This document shows, piece by piece, positions 12,732 through 50,965 of a stretch of DNA of 64,000 nt; position 1 is the stretch's first letter; each line of letters starts with the position of its first letter. A model generated the notes under the pieces. It saw nothing but the letters and a program-made list of their open reading frames with translations. It searched no databases and was not told the DNA's origin. The stretch comes from an uncultured Gammaproteobacteria bacterium. Its GTDB lineage: Bacteria > Pseudomonadota > Gammaproteobacteria > CAWCPV01. The stretch lies in the NCBI GenBank assembly GCA_963797555.1, contig CAWCPV010000003.1:896001-960000 (forward strand). Reading direction: 5' to 3'. Made by a program: the position numbers and the translations under genes.

Positions 12732-12748
12732 GGGCGTGCGACTATCGC

Positions 12749-16902: not shown

Positions 16903-16905
16903 GGG

Positions 16906-18418: not shown

Positions 18419-18910
18419 ATGGTCCGCATGAGCAAACTCACTGACTACGGCACCGTCGTCATGAGCTACCTCGCCCGTCGGCCAAGCGAGCTTCACTCTG
18501 CGGGCGAGATCGCGGCGCACGTACACGTGGCGCTGCCCACCGTCAGCAAGGTGCTGAAGCTCTTGGCCCGCGATGGCCTGCTGGTGTCTTCCCGCGGAGC
18601 GCGCGGGGGCTACGGGTTGGCCCGGCCGGCAGAGGCCATCTCGATGGCTCAGATCATTCGCGCCATGGAGGGCCCCATCGCTCTCACGGAGTGCAGCGAC
18701 GAGGCTGGCAGGTGCGTCCAAGAAGCCCTCTGCTCCATCGGGGGCCACTGGCAACGCATCAACGAGGCCATGCAAGCGACCTTGGATGCCATCAAGTTGG
18801 CGGAAATGATCGAGCCGCTGCTGGCCAGGACCTCGGGGGTCCGCGTCGCCCAGCCGCAACGTTCGGCGGAGGATGTCCCATCTCCCCAGCCAAGCGATGT
18901 CGAACACTGA
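18419..18910 (+). CDS. Rrf2-family SUF-system transcriptional regulator
   Basis: SKLTDYG...VSKVLKLL...[14 protein letters not shown] wHTH with EC...C.....C cluster ligands; first gene of the suf operon. Confidence 0.9.
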
Positions 18911-18932
18911 GATACGGACCCTGGAGACTCTT

Positions 18933-20378
18933 ATGGCCACATCGACCCAAGACATCAACGCACTTCTGAGCCGCAGGTACAAGCACGGATTCGTGACCGA
19001 CATTGATGCCGACACCGTGCCCCCCGGACTCAACGAGGAGGTAATCCGGGTCATCTCCGCCAAGAAGAACGAGCCGGAGTTCATGCTGCAATGGCGACTC
19101 AAGGCCTACCGCCACTGGCTCACGATGCCGCAGCCGAGATGGGCTCACCTGAAGATCGACCCCATCGACTTTCAGGCGATCAGCTACTACGCCGCTCCGA
19201 GGGTCAAGGAGGGGCCGAAGAGCCTGGGCGAGGTCGATCCCGAGTTGCTGCGCACCTACGAGAAGCTCGGCATCCCGCTCAAGGAGCAGGAGATGTTGGC
19301 AGGTGTGGCGGTGGACGCGGTGTTCGACAGCGTGTCCGTGGCGACCACCTTCAAGGACAAGCTGGCGAAGATGGGCATCATCTTCGGCTCCTTCTCCGAT
19401 GCGGTGCGGGAGCATCCCGAGCTGGTGGAGAAGTACCTCGGGTCGGTGGTCCCATACACCGACAACTTCTTCGCCACACTCAACTCGGCGGTATTCAGCG
19501 ACGGCTCCTTCGCCTACATCCCCAGGGGGGTGCGCTGCCCGATGGAGCTCTCCACCTACTTCCGAATCAACGCCAAGTCCACCGGCCAGTTCGAGCGCAC
19601 CCTGATCGTCGCCGATGAGGGTAGCTACGTAAGCTATCTGGAGGGCTGCACTGCACCGATGCGCGACGAGAACCAACTGCACGCCGCGGTGGTGGAGCTG
19701 GTCGCGCTGGAGGGCGCCCAAATCAAGTATTCCACGGTACAGAACTGGTACCCGGGGGACGAGGAGGGCCGCGGCGGAATCTACAACTTCGTCACCAAGC
19801 GGGGCGAGTGCCGAGGCGCTAATTCCAAGGTCTCTTGGACCCAAGTCGAGACCGGCTCCGCCATCACCTGGAAATATCCGAGCTGCGTACTCACTGGAGA
19901 CAACTCGGTGGGCGAGTTCTACTCGGTGGCACTCACCAACCACCGGCAACAGGCCGACACCGGAACGAAGATGGTGCACATTGGCAAGAACACGCGATCC
20001 ACCATCCTCTCCAAGGGGATCTCGGCAGGGCGCGGCCAGAACACCTACCGCGGGCTGGTAAAAGTCACCAAGGGGGCCGAGAGCGCCCGCAACTACACCC
20101 AGTGCGACTCCATGCTCCTCGGCAGCCGCTGCGGCGCGCACACCTTCCCCTACATCGAGGTGGCCAACCCCACAGCCAAGGTGGAGCACGAGGCATCCAC
20201 CTCGAAGATCAGCGACGACCAACTGTTCTACTGCATGCAGCGGGGCATCAGCTCCGAGGACGCGGTGTCGATGATCGTCAACGGCTTCTGTAAAGCAGTC
20301 TTCAAGGAGCTGCCGATGGAATTCGCAGTCGAGGCCCAGAAGCTTCTCGGGGTGAGCCTGGAAGGGAGCATTGGCTAA
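18933..20378 (+). CDS. sufB: Fe-S cluster assembly protein SufB
   Basis: [25 protein letters not shown] and EHEASTSKI. Start trimmed to ATG 18933. Confidence 0.97.
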
Positions 20379-20433
20379 GAGATCGGGAAGACGGTTCAAC
20401 GGATTCATATCATTCGAAAGAGGTCAAAGGCGC

Positions 20434-21207
20434 ATGCTGTCCATCAAGAATCTGCACGCGAGCGTGAACGGTAAGCCCATCCTCAAGGGCATCGACTTGG
20501 AGGTCCGCCGGGGCGAGGTGCACGCCATCATGGGCCCCAACGGCTCGGGTAAGAGCACCCTGTCCCACGTCCTAGCCGGGCGCGCGGGCTACGAGGTCAC
20601 CGACGGCGAGGTGCTGTACGAGGGTCGCGATCTATTGGAGATGGCGCCCGAGCAGCGCGCTCGGGAGGGTATCTTCCTCGCCTTCCAGTACCCGGTGGAA
20701 ATTCCTGGCGTCAGCAACATCTACCTGCTCAAGGCCGCCGTCAACGCCATCCGCAAGCATCGGGGCGAGGTGGAGCTGGACGCGATGGACTTTCTCACCC
20801 TGGTCAAGGAGCGCACCCGGCTGGTAGAGATGGACGAGTCGTTCCTTTACCGGGCGGTTAACGAAGGCTTCTCCGGCGGCGAGAAGAAGCGTAACGAGGT
20901 GTTCCAAATGGCGGTGCTGGAGCCCAAGCTCGCGGTCATGGACGAGACCGACTCCGGACTCGACATCGACGCCCTGAAGATCGTGGCCAACGGCGTCAAT
21001 GCGATGCGCGGCCCGGAGCGCGCATTCGTCCTGGTCACCCATTACCAGCGCCTCCTGGACTACATCGTGCCGGACTTCGTCCACGTCCTGGCCGCAGGCC
21101 GCATCATAAAGTCGGGTACCCGGGAGCTGGCCCACGAACTGGAGGCCAAGGGTTACGGGTGGCTCGAGAAGGAGCCGGAGACGGCTGGGGCGGGGGTGAT
21201 GGGATGA
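20434..21207 (+). CDS. sufC: Fe-S cluster assembly ATPase SufC
   Basis: [28 protein letters not shown] and [12 protein letters not shown]. Confidence 0.97.
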
Positions 21208-22547
21208 GCGGCCCGGCGTCGAACGGCATCGATCGCTATCTGCGCAGCTATGCGGATCGCCGAGCGACCCTGCCCGGCCGCTCGCTCCCGTGGATACAGG
21301 GACTGCGCGAGGAGGCACTGGCAAACTTCCGCGACCGGGGGTTCCCCACAACGCGCGAGGAGGAGTGGAAATATACCCGCGTGGCAGCCATCGAGAACGG
21401 GGACTTTGTGCCTGCGCATAACGGCGTGGATCGGATCGATGGGAGCTGGGTCGCCGCGCGGACCCTCGGCGACCCGGGACCTCACCTCATGGTGTTCGTC
21501 GACGGCCGTTTCGCGCCGGGATTGTCCCGTCTCAATAGCCTCCCGGGATCCGTGCAGGTGCGGAGCCTGGCCGAGGCACTGGAGAGCGAGCCGGACTTAG
21601 TCCAGCCCTACCTGGGCCGGCAAGCGGACAGTAGGCGGCATGGATTCGCAGCGCTGAATACGGCGCTAATGGCGGACGGCGCGTGCGTCATCGTGCCCCA
21701 CGGGGTGAGCCTCGAGGAGCCCATCCAGATAGTGTTTATCGGCGGCGTCCAAGGGAACACCGGTGCCTACATCCGAAACCTGTACGTGGCCGAGGCAGAC
21801 GGTCGGGCCACCATCGTCGAGACCTATGTAGGCTTCGACGACACCGCCTACCTCACCAGCGCGGTAACGGAGACGGTCTTGGGGCGGAACGCCGTGCTCC
21901 ACCATTACAAGCTGCAGCAGGAAAGCATGAAGGCCCACCACATTGCCGCGCTGCACCTCCATCAGGCGCGGGACAGCCAGCTCCAGGCTCACAGCTTCTC
22001 ATTGGGGGGGCTGCTTGCCCGCCACGAGATCAACGCCGTGCTCGCGGAAGAGGGGGTGCACTGCGCACTGAACGGTCTTTATCTGGCCGACGGCCGCCGA
22101 CAAGTGGACACCTACCTGTTCGTCGACCACGCCCGGCCGCACGGCACCAGCCGCGAGGAGTTCAAGGGCGTCGTTGGCGGCCGCGCCCGCGCGGTATTCA
22201 ATGGGAAGGTGCTGGTGCGCCAGGACGCCCAGCAGACGGACGCCCATATGAGCAACAAGAACCTCTTGCTGTCCAAGGACGCGGAGGCCGACACACGACC
22301 CCAACTGGAGATCTACGCCGACGACGTGCGCTGCACTCATGGCGCCACGGTGGGACAGCTCGACGAGGACGCGCTCTTCTATCTGCGCTCCCGCGGCATC
22401 GCCGAGCAGACCGCCCGGGGTTTCCTCATCTTCGGCTTCGCCCACGACATTATCGACCGTATCCCGGACGCCAAGGTGCGAAGCGGTCTGGCGCGGTTGG
22501 TCGTCGGTCATCTACCCAACCACGACCAAATGAAGGACCTTCTATGA
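21204..22547 (+). CDS. sufD: Fe-S cluster assembly protein SufD
   Basis: EEWKYT, AVFNGK and [22 protein letters not shown]. Confidence 0.95.
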
Positions 22548-23809
22548 GTGCCCAGGTGAAGCGGGTCGAGCCCACCGTGGCCCCATGTCCTGCCTATGAC
22601 GTGGGGCGGGTGCGGGAGGACTTCCCGGCATTGCACCAGACCGTCCATGGGCGCCCCCTGGTCTACCTGGACAACGGAGCCACGAGCCAGAAGCCCAACG
22701 CGGTGATCGAGGCATTGGCGGACTATTACCGCCGCTACAATGCCAATGTCCACCGCGGCGTCCACCAGTTGAGTCAGCTGGCCACCGAAGCGTACGAAGG
22801 AGCCCGCACGCGCGTGGCGGCCTTCATCCATGCCCGCAGTGCACGGGAGATGGTCTTCGTGCGCGGAGCGACCGAAGGGATCAATCTGGTAGCCCAGACC
22901 TACGGCCGGCAAAACCTGCGGGCCGGCGACGAGATCCTGCTCACCGAGATGGAGCATCACTCCAACATCGTTCCCTGGCAGATGCTATGCGAGCATACCG
23001 GAGCGGTCTTGAGGGTGGCCTCCATCAACGACGCCGGCGAGGTGAACCTGGCCCACTTCGAGTCCCTGCTAAGCGACCGCACACGCTTGGTGGCCGTGGG
23101 CCACATGTCCAATGCCCTGGGAACTATCAACCCGGTGCGCCGCATGGCGCGCTTGGCCCATGCTGCGGGCGCCAAGGTGCTCGTCGACGGTGCCCAGGCG
23201 GTTCCCCACCTGCCGGTGGACGTGCAGGCCCTGGACTGTGACTTCTATGTCCTGTCTGGGCACAAGCTCTACGGACCGACCGGCGTAGGCATCATCTATG
23301 GAAAGCTGGAGCTGCTGGAGGCGATGCCGCCTTACCAAGGGGGCGGAGACATGATCCGCATGGTCAGCTTCGACAAGACCGTGTACAACGACGTGCCGTT
23401 CAAGTTCGAGGCCGGTACCCCGCACATCGCCGGCGCCATCGGTCTCGCGGCCGCGCTCGACTACTTGAACGGACTGGGATTGGATGCGGTCGCGCGCCAT
23501 GAGAGCGACCTCTTGGATTACGCCACCGACGCTCTGAGCGCTATCAAGGGCCTGCGCATCATCGGCAACGCTCGCGAAAAGGGAGCAATCCTCTCCTTCG
23601 TGCTCAGCCGGGCGCATCCCCACGACATTGGCACTATCATGGACCACGAAGGGGTGGCCATACGGGCTGGGCACCACTGCGCCATGCCGGTGATGCAGCA
23701 TTTCCGAGTCCCCGCGACAGTCCGCGCCTCGTTCGCCTGTTACAACACCCGTGAAGAGGTGGATCGGCTGGTGCAGGCCATCGATAAAGTTCGAGATCTC
23801 TTTCCCTGA
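22544..23809 (+). CDS. sufS: Cysteine desulfurase SufS
   Basis: YLDNGATSQKP, PLP lysine SGHKLYGPTG and IRAGHHCA. Start trimmed to ATG 22544, overlapping the sufD stop. Confidence 0.96.
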   Translation: MSAQVKRVEPTVAPCPAYDVGRVREDFPALHQTVHGRPLVYLDNGATSQKPNAVIEALADYYRRYNANVHRGVHQLSQLATEAYEGARTRVAAFIHARSAREMVFVRGATEGINLVAQTYGRQNLRAGDEILLTEMEHHSNIVPWQMLCEHTGAVLRVASINDAGEVNLAHFESLLSDRTRLVAVGHMSNALGTINPVRRMARLAHAAGAKVLVDGAQAVPHLPVDVQALDCDFYVLSGHKLYGPTGVGIIYGKLELLEAMPPYQGGGDMIRMVSFDKTVYNDVPFKFEAGTPHIAGAIGLAAALDYLNGLGLDAVARHESDLLDYATDALSAIKGLRIIGNAREKGAILSFVLSRAHPHDIGTIMDHEGVAIRAGHHCAMPVMQHFRVPATVRASFACYNTREEVDRLVQAIDKVRDLFP

Positions 23810-23881
23810 TGACCGCTGGAGGCGCGTCGCTCGGTCCAGACGGAGATCTATCGCCGCGGTCGCGCCTCTGAGGAGACAGAC

Positions 23882-24226
23882 ATGAGCACGGAGCAGTCCG
23901 AATCAGCAGCGGGTGGCGAAACCGAGGATCTGAAACCTCGCGTCATCGACGCGCTGCGCACGGTTTACGACCCGGAGATCCCGATCAACATCTACGACCT
24001 CGGCCTCATCTACGAGCTTCAGATCGAGTCCGGCGGTCACGTGGCCATCCGCATGACCCTGACGGCCCCAGGCTGTCCCGTGGCGCAGACCTTCCCGGCG
24101 ACGGTAGAGGGGACGGTGCGGGCCGTTGACGGAGTCGTCGACGCCGAGGTCGAGTTGGTCTGGGACCCCCCCTGGACTATGGAACGCATGTCCGAGGCTG
24201 CGCGGCTGCAGCTTGGGATGCTCTAG
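23882..24226 (+). CDS. DUF59/SufT-like Fe-S assembly protein
   Basis: VYDPEIPINIYDLGLIY, MTLTAPGCP and LVWDPPW. Confidence 0.9.
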   Translation: MSTEQSESAAGGETEDLKPRVIDALRTVYDPEIPINIYDLGLIYELQIESGGHVAIRMTLTAPGCPVAQTFPATVEGTVRAVDGVVDAEVELVWDPPWTMERMSEAARLQLGML

Positions 24227-41106: not shown

Positions 41107-43182
41107 ATGATTGGCGCTTTGGTCTTTGCCTTGCTGTGCGCGGTCGCGGCCCTAGTCTACGGGTTCCTGTCCATCCAGTGGGTGTTGAGGCAGCCGTCCG
41201 GCAGCGAACGGATGCGCGCCATCGCCGAGTATATCCAAGAAGGGGCGTCCGCCTACCTGCGACGCCAGTACACCACCATCGGCATCGTCGGTATCGTCCT
41301 GTTCGTCATTATCGCGTTGGCGCCGGGTCTGGGCCTGCCGACGGCCACGGGCTTCGCCATCGGGGCGGTCCTGTCGGGACTGACGGGCTTCATCGGCATG
41401 AACATCTCGGTTCGGGCCAATGTGCGCACCGCCGAGGCGGCCAAGGGGGGCATCAATAACGCCCTGCAGCTCGCGTTTCGCAGCGGCTCAATCACCGGGT
41501 TACTGGTGGTGGGCCTCGGGCTCCTAGGAGTCTCGGGCTACTACGCTATCCTGGTGGCCGTCAGCGATCCCGATCAAGCGGTGACCCACTTGATAGGACT
41601 GGGCTTCGGGGCGTCGCTCATCTCCATCTTCGCCCGACTCGGAGGCGGCATTTTCACCAAGGGCGCAAACGTCGGCGCCGACCTCGTAGGTAAGGTAGAG
41701 GTCGGAATCCCCGAGGACGACCCGCGCAACCCCGCAGTGATTGCCGACAATGTCGGGGACAACGTGGGGGACTGCGCCGGAATGGCGGCGGACCTGTTCG
41801 AGACCTACGCCGTCACGATCATCGCCACCATGCTCCTCGGCGCACTCCTGCTGAAGCAGGCGGGAAACACCGTCATCGTCTATCCCCTGGTGCTGGGAGG
41901 CGTCTCCATCATCGCCTCGGTGATCGGGACCTTCTTCGTCAAGGCTTCGGCAGGGGGAAGGATAATGAGCGCCCTCTACCGGGGTGTCATCACCTCCGGC
42001 GCAATAGCCGCGGTCCTGTTCTACCCGGTCACGGTCTGGCTGATGCCGGCAACGGTCGAAGTCCAAGGGGCGGTTATCACGGGGACAGGCATCTACCTGG
42101 CGGCGCTCGTCGGGCTAGCACTCACCGCAGCCCTGATGGTCATCACCGAGTATTACACGGCTACCCAGTATGGACCGGTGCGCCACATCGCCCAAGCATC
42201 TACCACCGGCCACGCCACCAACATCATCGCAGGGCTGGGCCTATCGATGAAGGCCACCGCACTGCCGGTGCTGGCGGTATGCGCCAGTATCTGGGGGGCT
42301 CACGAGTTGGCCGGACTTTACGGCATCGCCATCGCCGCCACCTCCATGCTCTCCATGACCGGCATGATCGTCGCCTTGGATGCCTATGGTCCCGTCACGG
42401 ACAACGCCGGCGGGATCGCAGAGATGGCGGACCTCCCACCCGAGGTTCGCGGCGTCACCGACCCACTGGATGCGGTCGGCAACACCACCAAGGCCGTCAC
42501 CAAAGGCTATGCCATCGGTTCAGCGGGCCTGGCGGCGCTCGTGCTTTTCGCGGATTACACCCACGCCCTGGAGCACGCCGGCACTCACCTGGCGTTCGAT
42601 CTCTCGGATCCGGCGATCATCATCGGTCTGTTCATCGGTGGGCTCGTGCCTTACCTGTTCGCCTCCATGGCCATGGAGGCCGTCGGCCGGGCTGCGGGCT
42701 CCGTGGTCATGGAGGTCCGCCGCCAGTTCAGGGAGATCAAGGGCATCTTGGAGGGCGAAGCCAAACCGGACTACTCGCGGGCTGTCGACCTGCTCACGCG
42801 CGCCGCGATCAAGGAGATGGTGGTCCCCTCGCTGCTGCCCGTGCTGGTCCCCATCGTCGTGGTGTTCCTGATGAGCTGGATAATGGGGCCTGCTGCAGGC
42901 CCCAAGGCTCTGGGCGGCGTCCTGGTGGGGACCATCGTGACCGGACTGTTCGTGGCCATTTCCATGACCACCGGTGGCGGGGCCTGGGACAATGCCAAGA
43001 AGTACATCGAGGACGGCAACTTGGGCGGCAAGGGCTCGGACGCTCATAAGGCCGCGGTGACCGGAGACACGGTCGGCGACCCCTACAAGGACACAGCCGG
43101 GCCGGCCATCAACCCCCTCATCAAGATCATCAATATCGTCGCGCTGCTCCTAGTCCCGCTGCTCCCCGCCGTGGGGCAATGA
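41107..43182 (+). CDS. hppA: Membrane H+-translocating pyrophosphatase, K+-independent type
   Basis: Many TM segments; [11 protein letters not shown], [21 protein letters not shown] (Lys marks K+-independence) and [10 protein letters not shown]. Confidence 0.93.
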
Positions 43183-43596
43183 GGGAAGCCCACGGGGGAC
43201 ATGGCAATGCCGGGGAGCACTGCGCAGCAGTCGTCGACGCGACGCCGACGCAGAATCGCCAGGGATCGCGGGCAACCCACCCTCACGCTCGATCGCCCGC
43301 GGCTCCCCCGCCCTCCCTAGCCCGGTCTCCCCCTCGAGTCGCTTGCAAGATGCCAAGGGCGTCACGCAGGGGCTCGATCGGGAGACGGTGGCGCATGGTG
43401 TTCACGGGTCACGAGGGGTCGCGGCAGTTGTGGCCATGCCCGGCGTGCTCGATGAAGCAGAGAGGATATGCACCGGATCCGGCATCTCGCTGCGCTCGGC
43501 GGCGACGGTCCTTGGACTACACCGTAACCGCCCAACGGCGCAGCACACCCCCCAGCCCCTAGGTGCCGGCTCTCGCCTGTGGCAATGAAATCCCCC

Positions 43597-43995
43597 TCAG
43601 AGCTTGGGCGTACCGTCGTGGGCGTAGGTCCGCTCGAACAAGCCCTGGCAGGAAACGCAGCGCTTCGCCTCCGGGTGAGCCCCCAAGCGCTGGTAACCGA
43701 TGCTCTCCCCGCAGTCGATGCAGGTGCCGTAGCTCCCCATTGCGATGCGGTTCAATGCCTGCTCGACTTCTTTGAGCTCCCGAATCTGACGATCGATGAT
43801 GGCGATGCTAAAGTCCACCAGGAGGTCGGCAACCGACTCCTCCGCTTCGTCGTGCACGCGCTCCGCCAAGTCGATGTAATGCGCTTCATCCGATCGCAAC
43901 AGCTCTTCCCGGATCTCTTCCTGGAGACGGCGACGCTTGTCTTCGAGGCGCTTCTTCAGCTCCGCGATTTGCTCCTTGGTCATTTCCTGGGTCAC
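43597..43995 (-). CDS. TraR/DksA-family zinc-finger protein
   Basis: Coiled-coil followed by YGTCIDCGE.I...RL...P.A.RCVSCQ. Confidence 0.85.
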   Translation of the reverse strand: MTQEMTKEQIAELKKRLEDKRRRLQEEIREELLRSDEAHYIDLAERVHDEAEESVADLLVDFSIAIIDRQIRELKEVEQALNRIAMGSYGTCIDCGESIGYQRLGAHPEAKRCVSCQGLFERTYAHDGTPKL

Positions 43996-44102
43996 CGCGA
44001 GTATCCCCCGAGTTCAGTTACAGGTCGTAGCACAGTACGATGTTGCCCTGAGGGATGGACTGGAGGCCGGTGCGGACTGCAGTCACCGACCTGCCGTTTG
44101 CA

Positions 44103-44792
44103 CTACCAAGGCATAAAGCCATTCCCCCACGGCATAAAGCTGTTCATCATGCTCATCGGTCGGGCGGCTTGACCCATGCTCCCCACATCCCGCCCCATGC
44201 GGCCGATGGAGTAACTCATGGTGGACATGAACTGGCTCATGGCGATCATGTTCGCCACGATAGGCTCCATCTTTGCGGAGATGATGGTGATATTTCCCGA
44301 CAACACGTGCATGGTGACGTTGATGGCTGTAAGGTCGGAGCTGATGATATCCGTATTCCCCGCGATCTTGGTGAGGTCCGCCATCATCGTGGACATTTCG
44401 CGCTCCACCTTCGCCATATTCTCACTCAAGGACAGGGTATTACCAGACATCGAGTGCACGTCGAAACGCAGCTTATCCATGCTGTCAGACAGCCGCAGCA
44501 CGCTGGCCGAAATGTTCGCCATGTTTTGGCCCATGTTCTTGTCAATCGAGCGGGCCAAAATGGAAACGTCGTGGGTCAGGCTGTAGATCAGATAGAAACC
44601 ATAGGCAGCCAGCACGATGAAGGCGAACAGCGACGGGTACACGACCAGCTCCCACCGGCGCGCACTAGCCTCAAACGCCTTGGCGAAGCGGTCGAGGCCC
44701 GCATCCATCGAGGAAGCGGACTGACGGGGCTCTATCGCCTCAGGTCCGTGGCCGCCCGGGGCGGAATTTCCTTCGTCAGATGGGGTGGTCAT
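44103..44792 (-). CDS. Single-pass membrane protein with a long Met-rich coiled-coil
   Basis: TM segment VVYPSLFAFIVLAAYGFYLIY followed by heptad M/I/L repeats; C-terminus FMPWGNGFMPW. Confidence 0.75.
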   Translation of the reverse strand: MTTPSDEGNSAPGGHGPEAIEPRQSASSMDAGLDRFAKAFEASARRWELVVYPSLFAFIVLAAYGFYLIYSLTHDVSILARSIDKNMGQNMANISASVLRLSDSMDKLRFDVHSMSGNTLSLSENMAKVEREMSTMMADLTKIAGNTDIISSDLTAINVTMHVLSGNITIISAKMEPIVANMIAMSQFMSTMSYSIGRMGRDVGSMGQAARPMSMMNSFMPWGNGFMPW

Positions 44793-45037
44793 GCATCAAG
44801 TCCTTACGGGCGCGCAACGGCACGTCTACCGGGTATCCCGAAGGGAAAGTCGGATTGTGACACCCGTTATGACGGCCCGTCAACCTTGGTGCGGCGCGCC
44901 AGAATCTGGTGAGCGCAAGCGTCGCCCATCCCGCCGCCGCGCCTCCGCCGCCGAAGCTCACACGGGTGCTGGCGCCCCATGCCTGCTGTTCAGTCCGACC
45001 CCGCATTTCGACCCCTGAGCTTCAGAGCCCCTGGTCA

Positions 45038-48000
45038 TCAGCTCTCACCGAGCTGCGTCTCTATGCCATCCGCCAACTCGGTAAAGCCGGACTGCGCGTG
45101 CTCGGCCGGGGTAAGGTGGTTCATGTCGGCCAGCACATCCGTCAGGCGCGCAATGGTGGCACGGATCTCACGGTAAAGGTCCAAGGTTTCCCGCACCCCC
45201 TCCAGGTTCGATCCCTCGACCGTTTTCATTTCGGCATCCAGCTCCCCGATCTTCTGCTCCCAGAACCTGATATGGCCCACAATCCCGATCGGGTCATGGA
45301 TCCCCGCCTCATCGAGGACTATCGGGAAGCCCCGCCCGCGCAGGTCCTTCGCCTTGTCGATTTGGATCAGCTCGAACATGCAATAGCGTGAGCGCAGATA
45401 CGCCTCGCTGAGCACCACAACCGCCGCCTTGCCCCGGCCCAGCCGGTTCATGAAGTCCAGGATAGAGTCCTTGTAATGCAGCTCGTCCTTGTCCCGCGTC
45501 ACCCGAATACCGCGGCCCCGCAGCGCATCGGTGAGTGCATCGACAATGGCCGTATCCGCCCGCCACGCATACGACACGAAGACCTCCGGCGGATCGACGG
45601 GGGCATGCAGAGGGGGCGTCGCTTCCACCCGCTCGTATTCCACTATCCCTGCCTCGCGGCCTGTCCCGCGTTCGAACACCGCATCGATCAGGGCGGCGGC
45701 ATCCACCATCTCCCAACTGCGGCGACACTGGATCGGCCGGCTTTCGCGTGCCGCTCGGGTCAGGACTTCGAAGGGGAAGGACTCCGGATCCGGATGTCCG
45801 GCGCACTGGGGACAGTTGCAGGGGACCAGGGCCTGGGCATCCAGGCGCGGGAAGCTGCGATGAATGCGCGTGAGCTCGTGCAGGACTATCCCGAGCAGGA
45901 CCTTGCGCCCGGGGCCTTGGGCGCGCAGCACCAGTTGGCGCCGCTGGTTGTCCTCGACCGCTTCGCACCGTGCCTCCTCGTGCTCCAAGACCACGCCGGA
46001 GCGCCAAACCAACCGGCCCCCGCCCGTGATGTAGGGATGAGTCGCGACCGTGAGACGGGTGATGATCCCTTTGGGCATAAAGCCATAGACCCAGCGTAGA
46101 ACCAGGTCGCGGCTCTGGTCCCACGGGTAGGTGGGGCGCGACGCGGGAAGGAGCTGGGGCGCAATATAGCCCGTCCCGTCCGGCAGCTCGTAACAGAGCT
46201 GGAACTTCATCATCAGTCGCAGCAACTCGTCTCCCATGCCCGCGTGCTCGGGGGCATCCCAGATGCGTGCGAGGTCGGCCCGTGAAAAGTGGCCGTAGGC
46301 GGCCGCCACCCCGGCATCGTCCAGCACCCGGTAGACCGCATCCGTGCCCCAGGAGGGGCGCAGGATCACCGTGTGCTTGAGCACCGGATCGTCCTGGAAG
46401 TGCAGACAGATGCCGAGGTCGTGCAGGTAGTCGCTCAACTGAAGCTTGTCCTTGTCGCGGGTAAAGCCATGGCGCCCGCAGAGGTCGAGAAACTCGGTCA
46501 GGGCGATATGGTCCCGGGAGTCCGATTCCAGTGCCTCGCGCACCCGCTTCCAGGCGGCGGGCAGTGCGTCTCCGATGTGCGGAAGCCCCTCCAATTGGTG
46601 GCGGATGCGCCGGACCACCCCGTCCAGCCCCCGGTTGGTTTGCAAGTTGGTGGCCAGGATCTCCTTCACGTTGGGGAAGCGCGCCCGCAGAGTTGCCTCG
46701 TCCAGCTCCCTGCGCCGGTCCTGCTTTTCGTTCTTGACGATGATGAGCGGGGCATCCCCCGCCAGCAGTTCCACCACGCCGAGCCAGTAATGGAAGTCCG
46801 TGTCCTCCTTGCGTGCGTCCGCCACCAGCACATAGAGCGAGCGGTGGGTCAGGAAGAACTGATGGGTGGCGTGGTAGATCTCCTGTCCGCCGAAGTCCCA
46901 GATCCCCACCTCGAAGTCCCGGTCGATGGGAGCGGCGCCGTCAGCGCGGGGATGGATGCGGCTCGGGAAGCGCCAGCGCAGGATGTCTATACCTTCGGTA
47001 GAGGGCCGGTCCGGGTCGAGGGCATAGGCGGGGTCCAGGATCTTCGCCGCCAGGGTGCTTTTGCCGGCTCCGCCCTCGCCCACGATCAGGAGCTTGGCCT
47101 CGCACAGATAGTCTGTCCCGGTCTCGGCCCGCTGACGCCAGTAATCGCGGATGGCGTCCAGACCCTTGGAGACCACCTCCTCGGGCGGGGTGACGATGGG
47201 TTGGTTACTGATGTCGAGGTAACGCAGGTGGGTCAGTTTGAGGATCGCGGCGGGTATCTCTCTGATTTGACCTGGGGTGCGGTTGATGCCAACTATTTGG
47301 GATTCGCCTCGGTTGAACCAGGCATGAGAAGGTACTGTACCGTCCAACCAGAGGTTCCGGAGACGATGCAGCGAGTAAACGACGGTTGGGATCTCTTGAA
47401 GATTCGAATGGCTCAGATCGAGGTGTTCCAGCCTCTGTAGAGCCGCTAATTCATCGGGGATGAACTCCAATGGATTACTGCTGAGACCGAGCGTGACAAG
47501 GCGAACCGATTGGTGTATTGCGGGTGACAATCCAGATATTCGATTGTAGCCTACGAATACAGACCGCAGGTCGGGCAGCGCAAAGAGCCAGTCCGGAAGA
47601 CAGTCCAGGCCCGCGTCCTCGGCTTCAAGCGTCTGAAGCCGGGTAAGCTGCATTATTGACTCCGGCAACCGGGTGATCGGATTGCCGGACAAGGTCAGAT
47701 GCTGCAGATTTGCGAGGCGACCCACCCCCTCCGGAAGATCACTTAGCCCGCAATAGAAGAGGTCGAGTCTCTCCAGAAGCGGAAAACGGTCTCCGATGTC
47801 CCCGAGGACTTCCTCGATCCAGTGCGGCGGCTGCGCATCCTTCTCGTAGCGGCCCAGGTCGAGCCAGCGCAGTTTCGAGAGCGCGCGGAGTCGCTCCGGC
47901 GGGGACTCCAGCTCCCAATCGAGCGCGACGCCGCGTACCTGCTCGTCCGGCACGCCTAGCCGTTCGATCACCGACCAGTGCGCGGAAATGGGCAAGCCCG

Positions 48001-48232
48001 CGGGCACGTCTTCGATCGGATTGTCGAATACAATGACCTCCCGCAGCGCCTTCAACTCCGAGACCCAGGCCGGCAGGGAGCGGATCCGGTTACCCGAGAT
48101 GTTCAGCGACTCCAGCCAATAGATCTCGCGGACCGCCTCCGGCACTGAGTCCAGCTCCCCATAGCTAAGGTTCAGGTGCTTGTGCCGCTGTCGTCGCGCC
48201 TCTTCGAGTTTCTCCTCATTCCGGGGTTTCAC
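45038..48232 (-). CDS. Roco-family protein: LRR - Roc GTPase - COR - TIR
   Basis: About 11 LxxLxLxxN-type repeats; P-loop GEGGAGKST; STEGIDI; WDFGGQEIYHATHQFF; COR (LHDLGICLHF, W.TDAVY.VLD); TIR VFVSYAW...SEAYLRSRYCMFEL. Confidence 0.9.
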   Translation of the reverse strand: MKPRNEEKLEEARRQRHKHLNLSYGELDSVPEAVREIYWLESLNISGNRIRSLPAWVSELKALREVIVFDNPIEDVPAGLPISAHWSVIERLGVPDEQVRGVALDWELESPPERLRALSKLRWLDLGRYEKDAQPPHWIEEVLGDIGDRFPLLERLDLFYCGLSDLPEGVGRLANLQHLTLSGNPITRLPESIMQLTRLQTLEAEDAGLDCLPDWLFALPDLRSVFVGYNRISGLSPAIHQSVRLVTLGLSSNPLEFIPDELAALQRLEHLDLSHSNLQEIPTVVYSLHRLRNLWLDGTVPSHAWFNRGESQIVGINRTPGQIREIPAAILKLTHLRYLDISNQPIVTPPEEVVSKGLDAIRDYWRQRAETGTDYLCEAKLLIVGEGGAGKSTLAAKILDPAYALDPDRPSTEGIDILRWRFPSRIHPRADGAAPIDRDFEVGIWDFGGQEIYHATHQFFLTHRSLYVLVADARKEDTDFHYWLGVVELLAGDAPLIIVKNEKQDRRRELDEATLRARFPNVKEILATNLQTNRGLDGVVRRIRHQLEGLPHIGDALPAAWKRVREALESDSRDHIALTEFLDLCGRHGFTRDKDKLQLSDYLHDLGICLHFQDDPVLKHTVILRPSWGTDAVYRVLDDAGVAAAYGHFSRADLARIWDAPEHAGMGDELLRLMMKFQLCYELPDGTGYIAPQLLPASRPTYPWDQSRDLVLRWVYGFMPKGIITRLTVATHPYITGGGRLVWRSGVVLEHEEARCEAVEDNQRRQLVLRAQGPGRKVLLGIVLHELTRIHRSFPRLDAQALVPCNCPQCAGHPDPESFPFEVLTRAARESRPIQCRRSWEMVDAAALIDAVFERGTGREAGIVEYERVEATPPLHAPVDPPEVFVSYAWRADTAIVDALTDALRGRGIRVTRDKDELHYKDSILDFMNRLGRGKAAVVVLSEAYLRSRYCMFELIQIDKAKDLRGRGFPIVLDEAGIHDPIGIVGHIRFWEQKIGELDAEMKTVEGSNLEGVRETLDLYREIRATIARLTDVLADMNHLTPAEHAQSGFTELADGIETQLGES

Positions 48233-48982
48233 CCCTTACTCCATACCCGATCCAAATCGATAGATTCGCGCTGCGATCCAGCGCCCAGGGGAAACCGGCC
48301 AGTGCCCGTCGGGCTCGCGACCGTCGCGCCCAATCCGAGGTGGACCCCGGCCGGAGGCGCCGGCTGCACCTCGCAGGCTAGGGGGCGGCAGGAGAGCGTG
48401 CTCGCCGCAAGCCTCCGTCGATGTCCCATGGGAGCTGCCCCTCGCGGGTCCCACAGACTGCCCGAGGCGGGGTGCACCGGGAACCCCCACCGCCCCCTGA
48501 GAATCCGCCAGATTGTGGTCGTTTAACCGGGACACCACCAGCCCCTCAACGCTAGGCGCGGTGTGTCTCCGGTGCAAGTGGTCCGCGGCACGGGGCCGCC
48601 GCATCAAGGGTCGCGCAACCGCCCGAGCCATCAGACTCGCCGTAGCGATGGCGGACGCTCCCGCCCTCCCCCTGCTACAGGGCCGAGAGGGCCGTTCATT
48701 CCACACGGGCCACACGGCGCGGGCGCCGTGGCCCTCAGGCCATCCGCTCCCGGACCATCAGACGCCCGCCACTCGACTGGTACACGGTCGGCTCTCCAGG
48801 ACGGGGGCAGTAACCTGGGCCGGGCCCTGGGGACCATTGCTCAGGCGCTGGGATAGCTGCCCGCTCCTCGCCACACAGCGGGGAAGTTTACTCGGTGCGG
48901 CCGATCGGCCGTGGAACGTTCGATGGCGCAAGCCTACCACGACGGGTCGGGAATTTCGGCACAGCCTCTCAGGCGCCGGCGG

Positions 48983-49621
48983 CTAGGCCGCAAGCCCTGG
49001 ATACAGGACATCCGCCAAGCGGTCGAACTCCTGCGCCCCTTTGCCGTCCGGCTCCAATTCGAAGACGGCCAACCCCTCGCTGAAGGACCTGCGGTAGATC
49101 GTTCGTTGACAAAGACGGCTCTCGATCAGCTCCACTCCGGGCATTTGGCCAAGCGCCGCTTCGGTCTCATCGGATTCCCGCACGGCATGGTGGGTGTCGG
49201 CCCGGTTCACGAAGGCGAACACCTTGGGATGCTTTTGGGGGGAGACCACCTCCTGCACGATAAGCAGGAATCGTTGCGTCGACCAGATGTCCGCCTGACT
49301 GGGCGGCACCGGGATGAGGATACGATCAGCCACGGCAAGGGCCTCGCGCATTCCCGGAACGTTCGAAGCCCCCACGTCCACCAACACCTCCCCATCGCAC
49401 CGGAGCAACTGGGAGACGACATCCTTGTTTGCCTGCAGGATTTGGATAGCAGGCTGATAGCCTTCTTCGCGCCTGACATCGGTCACATCCGACAGCGTAG
49501 CCTGCGGATCCAGGTCGAAGGCTACGACGGACTCCCCGCGAACCGCCAACCACGCCGCAAGGTTGAAGGTCACTGTACTCTTCCCCGACCCCCCTTTCAG
49601 ATTTCCGATGACCGTGATCAC
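48983..49621 (-). CDS. Orphan ParA/MinD-family ATPase
   Basis: Deviant Walker A NLKGGSGKST, DLDPQ, LVDVG and PVPPSQAD; about 212 aa; no parB nearby. Confidence 0.85.
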   Translation of the reverse strand: MITVIGNLKGGSGKSTVTFNLAAWLAVRGESVVAFDLDPQATLSDVTDVRREEGYQPAIQILQANKDVVSQLLRCDGEVLVDVGASNVPGMREALAVADRILIPVPPSQADIWSTQRFLLIVQEVVSPQKHPKVFAFVNRADTHHAVRESDETEAALGQMPGVELIESRLCQRTIYRRSFSEGLAVFELEPDGKGAQEFDRLADVLYPGLAA

Positions 49622-49747
49622 AGACCGCTCCCAACCTTTGGTCGGCACTGTCCAAGGCTTCCACGATTAAGCCGCGTGGCGGCGCGCTGCGCGCTTCCTA
49701 CCTGCGACGCCAACCAGGCGCGATGATACTGCCGCAGGCAGCAACGA

Positions 49748-50965
49748 TCAACGACAGCCTCCGGGGGGATTGCTGGTCGACCCGCCCACAGCCGCAGATT
49801 CCGGACCTGCGGGAGCGAGGGTACGCTGGCGCGTCCGCGCAATAAGCTCCAGCACCGCCTCGGCCGCTTCCTTGTCCGAGTCGCGCTTAAGCTCATGGTG
49901 GACCCGGGCAAACTCGCGCGCCTGCAGCGCGAAGCCCTCGGGGTGGTCGAGGCAGGCAAGCACGGCGGCCCCCAGGTTCTCCGGCGTCGCGTCCTGCTGG
50001 AGAAACTCCGGGACCAGGGAGCAGCCCGCCAGCAGGTTCGGTAGCGCAACGCATGGCACCTTGACCAAGCGCCGCAGTATCTGAAAGGTCACCGGTGAGA
50101 GCCGATAGGCAACCACCATGGGCCGGGGGATGAGCATCGCTTCGAGGGAGGCGGTACCCGATGCAGCCAGTACCACATCGGCAGCGACCATGGCCTCGAT
50201 GGACCTGCCCTCGACCAGGGTCAACGGTAGATCGGGGGCGTACCGCACGCGCGCGGCCGCGAACAACCTCGCCGCCGCCGCATTGGCGGTCGGGCTGACA
50301 AAGTGCAACTGGGGCCGCCTCTCCAGGGACCAGCGAGCAGCGCGCAGAAACGGCTCGGCCAGATACCGGATCTCGCTGGATCGGCTGCCCGGCAGCAACG
50401 CCGCGATGGTCCCCTCCCGGGGAAGGCCCAGGGCCGAGCGAGCATCACTTTGCGAGAGCAGTGGCGGCATCACGGCGGCCAGCGGGTGCCCCACGAATCG
50501 CACGGGAATCGCATGCTGCTCGTAGAACTGCGCCTCGAAAGGGAACAAGGTCAGGACCAGATCTACGCACTCGCGCATCCTGCGCACCCGATACTGACGC
50601 CATGCCCACACCGATGGGCTCACATAGTGCGCGGTGGGCACGCCTGCACGTTTCAGCACCCGTTCGAGGGGCAGGTTGAAGTCGGGCGAGTCGATCCCTA
50701 CGAAGGCGTCCGGGGGGGCCGCCAGCCAGTGTCGTACCAGACGACGACGCAGCCGCAGCAGCCCCGGGAGGTGCCGCAGCACCTCCGCCAGGCCCATCAC
50801 CGACAGCCTGTCGGCGGGAGCCAGAACGCGGCACCCCTGAGCGGCCATCCGCGGGCCCGCGACACCCTCGAAGACTACGCCCGGCCACAACTCCTTGACG
50901 GCCGCCAGCAACCCCCCGCCCAATAGGTCGCCGGAAGACTCTCCGGCGACGACCGCGATGCGCAA
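49748..50965 (-). CDS. lpxB: Lipid-A-disaccharide synthase
   Basis: VAGESSGDLLG, GIDSPDFN, YVSPSVWAWR and LLPGSR. TTG start inferred. Confidence 0.95.
   Translation of the reverse strand: MRIAVVAGESSGDLLGGGLLAAVKELWPGVVFEGVAGPRMAAQGCRVLAPADRLSVMGLAEVLRHLPGLLRLRRRLVRHWLAAPPDAFVGIDSPDFNLPLERVLKRAGVPTAHYVSPSVWAWRQYRVRRMRECVDLVLTLFPFEAQFYEQHAIPVRFVGHPLAAVMPPLLSQSDARSALGLPREGTIAALLPGSRSSEIRYLAEPFLRAARWSLERRPQLHFVSPTANAAAARLFAAARVRYAPDLPLTLVEGRSIEAMVAADVVLAASGTASLEAMLIPRPMVVAYRLSPVTFQILRRLVKVPCVALPNLLAGCSLVPEFLQQDATPENLGAAVLACLDHPEGFALQAREFARVHHELKRDSDKEAAEAVLELIARTRQRTLAPAGPESAAVGGSTSNPPGGCR

What the first reader, a model, noticed from the sequence alone, without database searches (positions are those of the whole stretch)
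45038..48232. Stand-alone LRR-Roc-COR-TIR protein: a candidate GTP-switched bacterial immune receptor
Seen: one 1064-aa ORF joins an LRR region, an intact Roc GTPase (G1 GEGGAGKST, G3 DFGGQ, atypical G4 NEKQD), a COR domain with a Cys cluster (PCNCPQC...QC) and a C-terminal TIR that keeps the Glu in YCMFEL. Known: Roco proteins cycle between monomer and dimer via COR depending on nucleotide, and many bacterial TIR domains are Glu-dependent NADases activated by oligomerisation in anti-phage defence. Inference: LRR ligand sensing could drive Roc-COR assembly and switch on the TIR, giving a one-gene sensor-switch-effector. The gene sits alone among housekeeping and metabolic genes.
Basis: partly seen in the sequence, partly recalled or inferred. 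Interest (0 to 1): 0.8.

Follow-up and report, generated by a model that had tools for sequence, protein, structure and literature searches.

The report
Bacterial LRR-Roco GTPase fused to TIR
This is an intact gene for a large bacterial protein that joins a leucine-rich-repeat sensor, a Roco-type GTPase switch and a plant-like TIR enzyme domain; it is one ordinary member of a very large family that has been predicted, but not yet shown, to act in bacterial immunity.

Summary
Window 45038..48232 (-) is one 1064-aa ORF: LRR, Roc, COR-A, COR-B, a disordered linker, then a complete TIR domain. Each is also family-wide in 93 aligned homologs: P-loop K391, DFGGQ, the odd G4 NEKQD, four invariant Cys in COR-B, and E954 in the TIR.

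The gene does sit among core genes (H+-PPase, DksA-like, ParA-like, lpxB/A/D, bamA), with no defence island.

It is not novel. A word-filtered search gave 2819 homologs, nearly all of the best 120 with the same architecture. Kaur et al. 2021 already described bacterial LRR-GTPase-COR proteins with swappable C-terminal effectors, TIR included, as predicted counter-invader systems.

New support here:
- The LRR is the fastest-evolving part.
- C-terminal domains swap repeatedly on the Roc-COR tree.
- The same TIR module is fused to nSTAND1, NACHT, caspase, CHAT and other conflict-system modules.
- The TIR is closest to plant TNL TIR NADases.
- This genome holds 17 TIR genes, including a second Roco with a frameshifted TIR.

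No activity, phage or dimer test was possible. Verdict: new member of a known, untested kind.

The parts
45038..48232 (-). Whole gene, 1064 codons plus stop (stop codon 45038-45040; GTG start 48230-48232)
   Evidence: ORF list, translation. GC 0.633 and GC3 0.79, typical of the genome.
48239..48242 (-). GGAG Shine-Dalgarno-like tetramer 6 nt upstream of the GTG
   Evidence: Read directly. Inference only.
47165..48178 (-). Leucine-rich repeat region, residues about 19-356 (predicted sensor)
   Evidence: Pfam LRR_4, LRR_8 and LRR_14. The AF2 model shows regular strand-helix repeats with pLDDT mostly above 90. It is the most variable part of the family.
46589..47101 (-). Roc GTPase domain, residues about 378-548 (G1 385-393, G3 446-450, G4 501-505)
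   Evidence: Pfam Roc 1.2e-20. G1 and G3 are invariant in 93 of 93. Aligns to the C. tepidum Roco Roc domain.
47060..47062 (-). Codon of P-loop Lys391
   Evidence: Invariant in 93 of 93.
46148..46561 (-). COR-A, residues 558-695
   Evidence: Pfam PF16095, 1.1e-41.
45683..46108 (-). COR-B, residues 709-850 (the dimerisation half of COR in solved Roco proteins, as I recall)
   Evidence: Pfam PF25497, 6.4e-30. Foldseek matches 3dpt/3dpu COR.
45725..45820 (-). Cys cluster C805-x-C807-xx-C810 ... C836 inside COR-B; probable metal site
   Evidence: All four Cys are invariant in 93 of 93. The stretch holding the first three is a gap in C. tepidum Roco (alignment). Metal binding is inference.
45599..45667 (-). 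Flexible linker, residues 856-878
   Evidence: The only segment with pLDDT under 50 in the full model. Lowest conservation: majority fraction 0.29.
45041..45586 (-). Complete TIR domain, residues 883-1064 (four strands, alphaC, then long C-terminal helices)
   Evidence: Pfam TIR_2 covers 884-991. The AF2 domain model has pLDDT 88.2 and pTM 0.84. TIR structures align across model residues 11-196: RPS4 157 residues at Z 13.1, RPP1 156 residues at Z 12.5. Foldseek tops are L6, RPV1, RPS4 and RUN1.
45371..45373 (-). Codon of Glu954, the presumed catalytic Glu in helix alphaC
   Evidence: Invariant in 93 of 93 and in 40 of 40 of alignment A2. Aligns with the Glu of the plant TIR C-L-D-E-L motif in RPV1 and Roq1.

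Best explanation
The gene encodes a single-chain, cytoplasmic conflict (immune or cell-suicide) receptor of the bacterial Roco ('AP-GTPase') class. The variable LRR solenoid is the ligand-binding part. The Roc GTPase with COR-A and COR-B is the nucleotide-dependent conformational and dimerisation switch. A roughly 23-residue flexible tether carries a complete, plant-TNL-like TIR domain. When two or more TIR copies are brought together, they cleave NAD+ using Glu954, causing growth arrest or death of the invaded cell.

Shown here: the anatomy, the conservation of all key residues, the fold, the variable sensor, the swappable effector position, and the use of the same TIR module in many other conflict-system architectures.

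Inferred: ligand binding by the LRR, GTP binding and hydrolysis, COR-mediated dimerisation, TIR NADase activity, activation by proximity, and any link to phage. The direction of the nucleotide switch (which state is 'on') is left open.
For: - Architecture and motifs.
- The full-length AF2 model is confident per domain (mean pLDDT 88.9), with one disordered tether at 856-878.
- The nearest solved structures are C. tepidum Roco LRR-Roc-COR (phmmer 4e-61; Foldseek 7.6e-40), then LRRK1 and LRRK2.
- The TIR profile is nearest to the plant TNL TIRs RPV1 (6.2e-11), Roq1, L6 and RUN1. Foldseek gives the same families. That list includes entry 7s2z, titled 'E100A mutant TIR domain from RUN1 bound to NAD'.
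- Sensor variability: majority fraction 0.39-0.44 in the LRR against 0.79-0.80 in Roc and COR-A and 0.73 in TIR. Median identity is 29% against 51-62%.
- Effector swapping: of 80 genome loci, at least 30 carry TIR_2, 5 CHAT, 1 EAD1 and 1 TCAD2, 4 end at COR, and 39 have a C-terminus with no Pfam family. On the Roc-COR tree the C-terminal label needs 18 changes where 3 is the minimum.
- The 196-aa TIR module has 3262 representatives at E<=1e-3 and 421 at E<=1e-30. It sits at N- or C-termini of proteins of many lengths. In 39 of them that I scanned, partners included nSTAND1, NACHT, AAA_35, VMAP, EAD7/EAD9, caspase, CHAT, a reverse transcriptase, FGE-sulfatase and WD40.
- Counting only TIR, CHAT, PLD-trypsin, VMAP/MoxR or a second Roco-TIR, 7 of 30 TIR-type loci have such a gene among the two nearest ORFs on each side. 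Counting Uma2, PIN and AAA_5 as well, it is 10 of 30.
- A Roc-COR-CHAT protein is the protease of the Runella gasdermin system (legend passage of the bioRxiv preprint 10.1101/2021.06.07.447441).
- The published prediction is in Kaur et al. 2021.
Against: - There is no functional data of any kind. I found no experimental paper on a bacterial Roco-TIR.
- The gene lies in core-genome surroundings with no defence gene nearby.
- Its composition is ordinary for the genome: tetranucleotide distance at the 72nd percentile of 836 windows.
- In 20 to 23 of the 30 homolog loci the nearest neighbours are housekeeping or unknown genes. I had no background rate, so no enrichment can be claimed.
- PADLOC has no model for the protein beyond weak TIR-only matches (best 6e-8).
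- The G4 motif departs from NKxD, so guanine specificity is assumed rather than shown.
- A COR dimer supplies only two TIRs, while many TIR NADases work as larger assemblies (recalled).
Confidence: 0.55

Rival explanations
1. Signal-generating TIR. On activation the TIR makes a nucleotide second messenger (a cADPR isomer or ADPR derivative, as in Thoeris or plant TNLs). The messenger activates an effector encoded elsewhere, rather than the TIR killing by NAD+ depletion itself.
For: The TIR is closest to plant TNL TIRs. These are signal-producing enzymes, as I recall and as stated for plants and Thoeris in the introduction passage of the 2025 bioRxiv preprint read. The genome holds 17 TIR_2 genes, so shared downstream components are conceivable.
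Against: No effector-like gene lies next to the gene. Most homolog loci also lack one. The single-chain architectures of this TIR module look self-contained.
Confidence: 0.15
2. A conflict-unrelated regulatory GTPase: a housekeeping or developmental signalling protein (for example cell-cell recognition or stress-induced dormancy) that is vertically kept in the core genome. Its TIR tunes NAD metabolism or acts in kin or self recognition rather than against phages.
For: The setting is core-genome, with ordinary composition. Synteny is conserved within Nostoc (L030, L032, L040 and L091 share the same two upstream genes) and within Pyrinomonadaceae (L044, L071). The family is concentrated in filamentous or aggregating lineages: 61 of 80 loci are Cyanobacteriota.
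Against: Distribution in the class is patchy. Only 2 of 40 related genomes have Roc-COR matches, and none reaches the TIR. The window protein's starred clade mixes Acidobacteriota, Planctomycetota and Actinomycetota. Effector swapping and a fast-evolving LRR are typical of conflict genes.
Confidence: 0.15
3. Scaffold TIR. The TIR is not an enzyme here but a homotypic adaptor, as in MyD88 or MAL, that recruits other TIR proteins of this genome.
For: The VIA-align top rows are the MAL (Z 14.1) and MyD88 (Z 13.8) filament TIRs. There are 16 other TIR_2 genes in the genome.
Against: These rows are tied within about 1 Z with plant and SARM1 TIRs, and fewer residues align (128-129 against 144-157). 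The Glu and the surrounding S-x-x-C-x-x-E-L motif are invariant, which a pure scaffold would not need. No other copy of this TIR subtype exists in the genome (tblastn).
Confidence: 0.1
4. A decaying or silent relic with no present function.
For: The genome's second Roco gene has its TIR split over two reading frames. No RNA run holds the gene, which the tool says is not evidence either way.
Against: The ORF is an uninterrupted 1064 codons, retains every family-invariant residue and has GC3 typical of expressed genes of this genome.
Confidence: 0.03

Closest known systems
Bacterial 'AP-GTPase' (Roco) counter-invader proteins of Kaur, Iyer, Burroughs and Aravind, eLife 2021 (PMC8195603; passages read)
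   Same: This is exactly the same class: rapidly evolving N-terminal LRRs, Roc-type GTPase, COR, and a variable C-terminal effector position. The paper says that position is filled by at least 24 domains, TIR among them. Paralogs with different effectors occur in one genome, and here there are two Roco genes.
   Different: Nothing essential differs; this gene is a member. The paper is computational and tests no function.
Chlorobium tepidum Roco (CtRoco; PDB 6hlu, 3dpu, 8r4b)
   Same: LRR-Roc-COR order. phmmer 4.1e-61 over residues 244-834. Foldseek 7.6e-40. The G1 and G3 motifs align.
   Different: No TIR appears in the aligned CtRoco chains. CtRoco has NKID where this family has NEKQD, and it has a gap where this family has the C-x-C-x-x-C cluster (alignment). 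Identity is only 20-24%.
Plant TIR-NB-LRR receptors (Roq1 7jlv, RPP1 7crb/7crc, L6, RUN1, RPV1)
   Same: The logic is the same: LRR sensor, NTPase switch, TIR effector. The TIR is the nearest by profile (6.2e-11 to 1.5e-8) and by fold, with the S-x-x-C-x-x-E-L motif aligned.
   Different: The domain order is reversed (TIR is C-terminal here). The switch is a Ras-like GTPase with COR, not a STAND NB-ARC ATPase. The expected assembly is a COR dimer rather than a tetrameric resistosome. TIR identity is only 16-27%.
Runella Roc-COR-CHAT protease of the bacterial gasdermin system (bioRxiv 10.1101/2021.06.07.447441; legend passages read)
   Same: A Roc-COR module is joined to a cell-death effector in an experimentally handled bacterial system. 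CHAT occupies the same C-terminal position in 5 of 80 relatives here.
   Different: The effector is a protease acting on a separate gasdermin gene. Here the effector is a TIR and no partner gene is evident.
Oligomerisation-activated TIR NADases (SARM1, TIR-SAVED 7qqk, SPARTA 8ifl, Cat1 9mud, AbTir 8g83)
   Same: TIR fold with a Glu in alphaC: SARM1 Z 12.5, Cat1 Z 12.6, TIR-SAVED Z 10.5.
   Different: The sensor and assembly modules differ, and sequence similarity is weaker than to plant TIRs (E 5e-4 to 0.5).

Membership tests
Roco proteins (Roc-COR tandem) | Ras-like Roc GTPase domain with intact G1 (GxxxxGK[ST]) and G3 (DxxGQ) | tested here: met
   Pfam Roc 1.2e-20. GEGGAGKST and DFGGQ are present and invariant in 93 of 93.
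Roco proteins (Roc-COR tandem) | COR-A and COR-B directly after Roc in the same chain | tested here: met
   PF16095 1.1e-41 at 558-695 and PF25497 6.4e-30 at 709-850.
Roco proteins (Roc-COR tandem) | Fold similar to solved Roco proteins | tested here: met
   Foldseek: 6hlu 7.6e-40, 3dpu TMt 0.79, 4wnr TMt 0.81.
Roco proteins (Roc-COR tandem) | Canonical G4 NKxD for guanine specificity | tested here: inconclusive
   The motif is NEKQD (501-505). N501 is invariant and D505 occurs in 82 of 93. It may be NKxD with one inserted residue. Specificity was not testable.
Roco proteins (Roc-COR tandem) | GTP binding and hydrolysis, and nucleotide-dependent dimerisation through COR | not testable with these tools
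Bacterial LRR-AP-GTPase-COR-effector conflict proteins (Kaur et al. 2021) | N-terminal fast-evolving LRR, variable C-terminal effector position, paralogs with different effectors | tested here: met
   LRR variability. C-terminal tally and tree. Second Roco in the genome.
Catalytic TIR domains (NAD+ glycohydrolase or cyclase) | TIR fold | tested here: met
   AF2 pLDDT 88.2. Foldseek and VIA-align hits are TIR domains over model residues 11-196.
Catalytic TIR domains (NAD+ glycohydrolase or cyclase) | Conserved Glu in helix alphaC, aligned with the catalytic Glu of plant TIRs | tested here: met
   E954 is invariant, lies in helix 949-960 and aligns with the Glu of the C-L-D-E-L motif of RPV1 and Roq1. 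That this Glu is the catalytic one is recalled from the literature and consistent with the title of PDB 7s2z.
Catalytic TIR domains (NAD+ glycohydrolase or cyclase) | Measured NAD+ cleavage | not testable with these tools
   Needs a biochemical assay.
Catalogued anti-phage systems (PADLOC-DB 2.0) | Match of the whole protein to a system model, with the system's partner genes nearby | tested here: not met
   Only the TIR part matches: PDC-S66 6e-8, bSEFIR 9e-7, SAVED_TIR 4.5e-6. No defence model hits the 58 other window ORFs apart from two generic matches.
Thoeris (ThsB TIR plus a separate effector) | Short stand-alone TIR protein next to a ThsA-type effector | tested here: not met
   The TIR is the tail of a 1064-aa protein, and no effector gene is adjacent. 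ThsB aligns by fold only at Z 11.0.
STAND/NLR-like bacterial receptors (Avs, bNACHT) | STAND-type P-loop NTPase (NACHT, NB-ARC) as the central module | tested here: not met
   The central module is Roc/Ras-like. The only STAND-related Pfam signal is AAA_16 at E 0.084 on the P-loop.

The most novel reading that the evidence does not exclude
Roco-TIR proteins are true GTP-gated pattern-recognition receptors. That would make them a second NTPase-switch class of innate immune receptor, independent of the STAND/NLR class. Their plant-like TIR would produce a signalling nucleotide, and the invariant four-Cys site in COR-B, which the solved C. tepidum Roco lacks, would be a metal or redox latch controlling the dimer. 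The bacterial protein would then be a tractable model both for TNL-type TIR activation and for the LRRK2-type Roc-COR switch.
Probability: 0.15. Interest if true: 0.7.

Novelty: new member of a known kind. Interest (0 to 1): 0.3.

Why it matters
If the predicted function holds, this family would show that bacteria gate a TIR death or immune effector with a Ras-like Roc-COR switch, the same module that is mutated in human LRRK2, instead of a STAND ATPase. A soluble 1064-aa single-chain bacterial protein with an easily read output (NAD+ loss) would be a convenient system for asking how LRR ligand binding and the Roc nucleotide state are coupled through COR.

This particular gene adds little. The architecture is abundant and already described. 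Its value is as one clean, intact, well-conserved example, from a genome that also carries many other TIR-NTPase receptors.

Tried and rejected
Each time it was turned back because the queue was full or the waiting time had not passed. No dimer test exists.
- **Sequencing runs:** no RNA holder was listed, and only two DNA metagenome runs held small shares, 0.09 and 0.05. I did not lay reads.
- **Rfam** on 43000-49800 at E<=0.1 gave no match. No tRNA was found in the window.
- **The 750-bp GC-rich spacer upstream of the gene** (48233-48982) has no second copy in the genome (blastn). Its 159-aa ORF has no Pfam family. I treat it as non-coding or unknown.
- **The plus-strand ORFs 43179-43562, 43579-44172, 44055-44912 and 44909-45391**, which I first took for neighbours, have no Pfam family. 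They overlap better minus-strand genes, so I rejected them as spurious.
- **Recent horizontal transfer** was rejected for lack of a compositional signal. The tree still mixes phyla.
- **A separate 'C-terminal helical domain' after the TIR** was rejected. TIR structures align across model residues 11-196.
- **NCBIfam** gave only LRR-level similarity to Xop-type LRR effectors, far below their cut-offs (134 bits against 600). This is not a membership.
- **Promoter and terminator scans** gave nothing above the shuffled expectation that bears on the gene.


Full report
**Observation**

One search lists 45038..48232 on the minus strand as a 1064-codon ORF with a GTG start, and translates it without a stop. 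A GGAG lies 6 nt upstream of the GTG (read).

Pfam finds, all above curated cut-offs:
- several LRR families over residues about 20-356;
- Roc at 380-502 (1.2e-20);
- COR-A at 558-695 (1.1e-41);
- COR-B at 709-850 (6.4e-30);
- TIR_2 at 884-991 (3.4e-14).

**Surroundings**

On the minus strand the gene is preceded by a 750-bp GC-rich spacer. This spacer has no Rfam family, no repeat elsewhere in the genome and no Pfam family in its ORF. Beyond it lie a ParA/MinD-like ATPase and then LpxB, LpxA, FabZ, LpxD, Skp, BamA, RseP and Dxr.

The gene is followed by a 229-aa Met-rich membrane or coiled-coil protein of unknown family, then a DksA/TraR zinc-finger protein, and then, on the other strand, H+-PPase and a PFK. 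The plus-strand ORFs that I first tested there are spurious.

The rest of the window holds dsrAB, dsrEFH, dsrC and other dsr-type genes, a class III PHA synthase, the SUF system, phosphoribulokinase and purine genes, followed by cdsA, uppS, frr, pyrH and tsf. This is therefore core chromosome of a sulfur-oxidising Gram-negative bacterium (inference from gene content).

PADLOC on the 58 other window ORFs at E<=1e-10 hits only SufC and PrmA through generic domains. 'Stands alone among housekeeping genes' is correct.

The gene's GC (0.633 against 0.646 for the genome) and its tetranucleotide make-up (72nd percentile of 836 windows) are ordinary.

**Anatomy and conservation**

I aligned the protein with 92 of the best full-length homologs (alignment A1). 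I left out rows of the 120 listed that were short, much longer, or covered less of the query.

Invariant in 93 of 93 are P-loop G385, E386, A389, G390 and K391, the whole D446-E451 stretch, N501, C805, C807, C810, C836 and, in the TIR, S887, F927, M928, G932, S948, C951, E954, R967, P970 and W991.

The unusual G4 NEKQD is family-wide: E502 in 91, K503 in 91, Q504 in 89 and D505 in 82 of 93.

Conservation is lowest in the LRR (majority fraction 0.39-0.44) and in the linker 856-882 (0.29). It is high in Roc (0.79), COR-A (0.80), TIR (0.73) and COR-B (0.69). Median identity to the window protein is 29% in the LRR against 62% in Roc, 56% in COR and 51% in TIR.

The nearest solved relative, C. tepidum Roco (4.1e-61), has NKID at G4 and a five-residue gap where this family has C-x-C-x-x-C. 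The four-Cys site is thus a feature of this subfamily that no solved Roco structure shows. That it binds a metal is my inference.

**Structure**

The full-length AlphaFold2 model has mean pLDDT 88.9 and pTM 0.57, so the domains are confident but their mutual placement is not. The only stretch below pLDDT 50 is 856-878, a tether between COR-B and the TIR. Foldseek puts C. tepidum Roco LRR-Roc-COR first (7.6e-40), followed by LRRK1 and LRRK2.

A separate model of residues 869-1064, built on a 40-sequence alignment (A2), has pLDDT 88.2 and pTM 0.84.
- Its best Foldseek matches are the plant TIRs L6, RPV1, RPS4 and RUN1 (1.5e-5 to 1e-4, TMt 0.57-0.64). Bacterial TcpB, BtTir and PdTIR rank lower.
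- The exhaustive VIA-align search gives TIR domains at Z 12-14. The plant ones align the most residues: RPS4 157, RPP1 156 and AtTIR 144, against 128-129 for MAL and MyD88. The alignments span model residues 11-196.

The long helices after the Pfam TIR_2 match are therefore part of one complete, plant-like TIR domain, not an extra domain.

A profile of A2 searched against PDB sequences again finds RPV1 (6.2e-11), Roq1, L6 and RUN1 first. The alignment puts the family's S-x-x-C-x-x-E-L on the plant S-x-W-C-L-D-E-L, so E954 falls on the plant Glu. That this Glu is catalytic is recalled from the literature. It fits the title of PDB entry 7s2z (RUN1 E100A with NAD), which one search lists.

**How common and how distributed**

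The word-filtered search scored 8000 candidates and found 2819 with E<=1e-3. By my reading of the table, all but two of the 120 listed (P0007 and P0065) carry PF13676 together with LRR, Roc, COR-A and COR-B. The best are 70% identical metagenome proteins. Named ones come from Corallococcus, Longimicrobium, Thermoanaerobaculia, Bryobacteraceae and Blastocatellia, and are called 'COR domain-containing protein'.

Of these, 61 are Cyanobacteriota and 6 Acidobacteriota by the ranks read from the record titles. A further Scytonema record and an Aminicenantes record carried no phylum label. The rest are Actinomycetota, Chloroflexota, Thermodesulfobacteriota, Planctomycetota, Bacteroidota, Omnitrophota and Pseudomonadota.

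Among 40 genomes of the same class as the window's genome, each from a different family, only two have Roc-COR matches (at most 38% identity, none reaching beyond residue 855). Two more match the LRR only.

**Effector swapping**

I gave Pfam the C-terminal piece of each of the 80 loci.

| C-terminus | Loci (of 80) |
|---|---|
| TIR_2 | 30 |
| CHAT | 5 |
| EAD1 | 1 |
| TCAD2 | 1 |
| Ends at COR or at the contig end | 4 |
| No Pfam family at E<=1e-5 | 39 |

The count of 30 is a lower bound. For L027, L047 and L075 the tblastn match ran into the query's TIR region, but the piece I cut began after it.

The window's long TIR type is found in 17 of the 81 proteins compared.

I built a quick maximum-likelihood tree of the Roc-COR part (81 rows). 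L027 is absent from it because it gave no usable single match.
- The tree places the window protein in a clade of seven long-TIR proteins (SH-aLRT 98), with Thermoanaerobaculia, Blastocatellia, a Planctomycetota MAG, Actinoplanes and Nakamurella.
- It needs 18 changes of C-terminal type, where the minimum is 3 and the shuffled mean is 32.6.
- The tool warns of long branches and uneven composition for several rows, the window's among them, so exact placements are soft.

The family is thus neither invariant nor strictly vertical, although within Nostoc and within Pyrinomonadaceae the locus is syntenic.

**The TIR module elsewhere**

I searched the 196-aa C-terminal piece against 1.84 billion cluster representatives. 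It has 3262 matches at E<=1e-3, 1735 at E<=1e-10 and 421 at E<=1e-30. The module lies at the N-terminus or the C-terminus of proteins of 189 to 1493 aa.

I scanned 39 of the 150 listed, chosen for varied length and position. Partners include nSTAND1 with FGE-sulfatase or WD40, AAA_35, NACHT with HEAT, NB-ARC-like with TPR, VMAP-M1 and VMAP-C, EAD7 and EAD9, caspase, CHAT with a kinase, a reverse transcriptase, RelA/SpoT, a sigma-54 AAA+ module, PD-(D/E)XK, and Roc-COR with LRR or WD40. These are the building blocks of the 'ternary' and related conflict systems described by the Aravind group.

**Neighbourhoods of homologs**

For the 30 TIR-type loci I scanned the two nearest ORFs on each side, 106 ORFs in all.
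- Seven loci have a clearly conflict-type neighbour: another TIR protein in L015, L020 and L032; a trypsin-PLD protein in L016; a CHAT protein in L031; a second LRR-Roc-COR-TIR in L048; and VMAP plus a MoxR-like AAA in L082.
- Three more have only Uma2, PIN or AAA_5 (L019, L023, L074).
- The other 20 have housekeeping or unknown neighbours, as here.
- Several loci are orthologous and so not independent, and I had no background rate. This is a hint of association, not a demonstrated enrichment.

**The window's own genome**

The genome has two COR-A matches. The second gene (contig C14, 254808-257375, minus strand) is LRR-Roc-COR. Its C-terminal TIR is split over two reading frames, either a real frameshift or an assembly error. 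That TIR is of a different, short subtype.

The genome has 18 TIR_2 matches, 17 above the cut-off. Six lie within 16 kb on contig C7 and four within 13 kb on contig C4. Those I scanned include TIR-NACHT-FGE-sulfatase and two TIR-nSTAND1-FGE-sulfatase proteins. No other copy of the window's TIR subtype exists in the genome. The organism is thus unusually rich in NTPase-TIR receptors, and this gene is one of them placed in the core chromosome.

**Mechanism**

The best-supported reading (confidence 0.55) is a one-chain conflict receptor:
- the LRR binds a ligant-type trigger, that is, an invader or damage signal;
- Roc-COR converts this into a change of conformation or oligomeric state;
- the tethered TIRs meet and cleave NAD+ through E954.

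Only the anatomy and the comparative pattern are shown. Each biochemical step is inferred from the families involved.

Which nucleotide state is active is open. As I recall, C. tepidum Roco is dimeric without nucleotide and monomeric with GTP, so 'GTP-switched on by dimerisation' should not be assumed.

The rivals are a signal-producing TIR with a remote effector (0.15), a non-immune regulatory role (0.15), a scaffold TIR (0.10) and a relic (0.03).

**Literature and novelty**

Kaur et al., eLife 2021 (PMC8195603; passages read) state that bacterial AP-GTPase-COR proteins have fast-evolving N-terminal LRRs. [quoted passage not shown]

- Reviews of ROC domains note TIR next to Roc-COR in Trichoplax (PMC4104024, figure legend).
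- A brown-alga study notes TPR-ROCO-TIR in Chondrus (PMC11378527, passage).
- The gasdermin preprint uses a Roc-COR-CHAT protease.
- Searches for 'roco' + 'anti-phage' + 'gtpase' and 'bacterial roco' + 'tir' found no paper.
- 'roc-cor' + 'phage' + 'defense' found only the two papers above.
- The 2025 preprint on TIR-based signalling systems has no occurrence of Roc, LRR or GTPase in its main text.

The architecture and the hypothesis are therefore in print, and an experimental test is not, within the library I could search. Supplements were closed. The finding is a new member of a known kind, and I score its interest at 0.3.

Noticed in passing
G000 contig C14:254808-257375 (locus L013:4809-7376, minus strand): This is a second LRR-Roc-COR gene of the genome. 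Its C-terminal TIR (a short subtype unlike the window's) is split between two reading frames, so the annotated-length ORF ends in about 145 residues of out-of-frame sequence. It may be a real frameshift or an assembly error. Asparagine-synthase-like, PqqD and transglutaminase-like genes lie next to it, which looks like a lasso-peptide set.
   Followed up: partly
G000 contigs C7:532468-548059 and C4:372201-385436: There are two clusters of TIR_2 genes, six within 16 kb and four within 13 kb. They include TIR-nSTAND1-FGE-sulfatase proteins. The genome holds 17 TIR_2 matches above the cut-off in all, plus a TIR-NACHT-FGE-sulfatase on C6:49931-52810. These look like the real conflict islands of this genome.
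   Followed up: partly
window 805-836 of the protein = 45725-45820: A four-Cys cluster (C-x-C-x-x-C, then C 26 residues later) inside COR-B is invariant in 93 of 93 homologs. It is absent, as a gap, in the solved C. tepidum Roco. It is probably a structural metal site that no solved Roco structure shows.
   Followed up: partly
window 44103-44792 (-): A 229-aa protein directly downstream of the Roco-TIR gene is very rich in Met, Ser and Asn. It has one hydrophobic segment and coiled-coil-like repeats, and only sub-threshold Pfam matches (DUF948, DUF1664). It lies in a stretch of lower GC (0.59-0.61). Its function is unknown.
   Followed up: partly
window 48233-48982: A 750-bp spacer upstream of the gene is unusually GC-rich (0.70). 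It has no Rfam match, no Pfam family in its ORFs and no second copy in the genome. This is long for a promoter region.
   Followed up: partly
window 2653-15206 (-): A reverse-type dissimilatory sulfite reductase cluster lies here: two NIR_SIR subunits, DsrE, DsrH, DsrC, NrfD-type and 4Fe-4S subunits, and a CobB-like amidase. It is followed by class III PHA synthase genes (15838-18135) and the SUF operon (18419-24226). This marks the host as a sulfur oxidiser.
   Followed up: no
L048:7085-9313 and 9875-13129; L082:6081-12346: In Nostoc paludosum two LRR-Roc-COR-TIR genes lie in tandem. In Nostoc minutum a 1363-aa Roc-COR-TIR frame directly follows VMAP and MoxR-like AAA genes, linking a Roco-TIR to a vWA-MoxR type 'ternary' system.
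   Followed up: no
window 43179-45391 (+): Four long plus-strand ORFs (127, 197, 285 and 160 aa) are artefacts of the high GC content. They overlap better minus-strand genes and have no family matches.
   Followed up: yes
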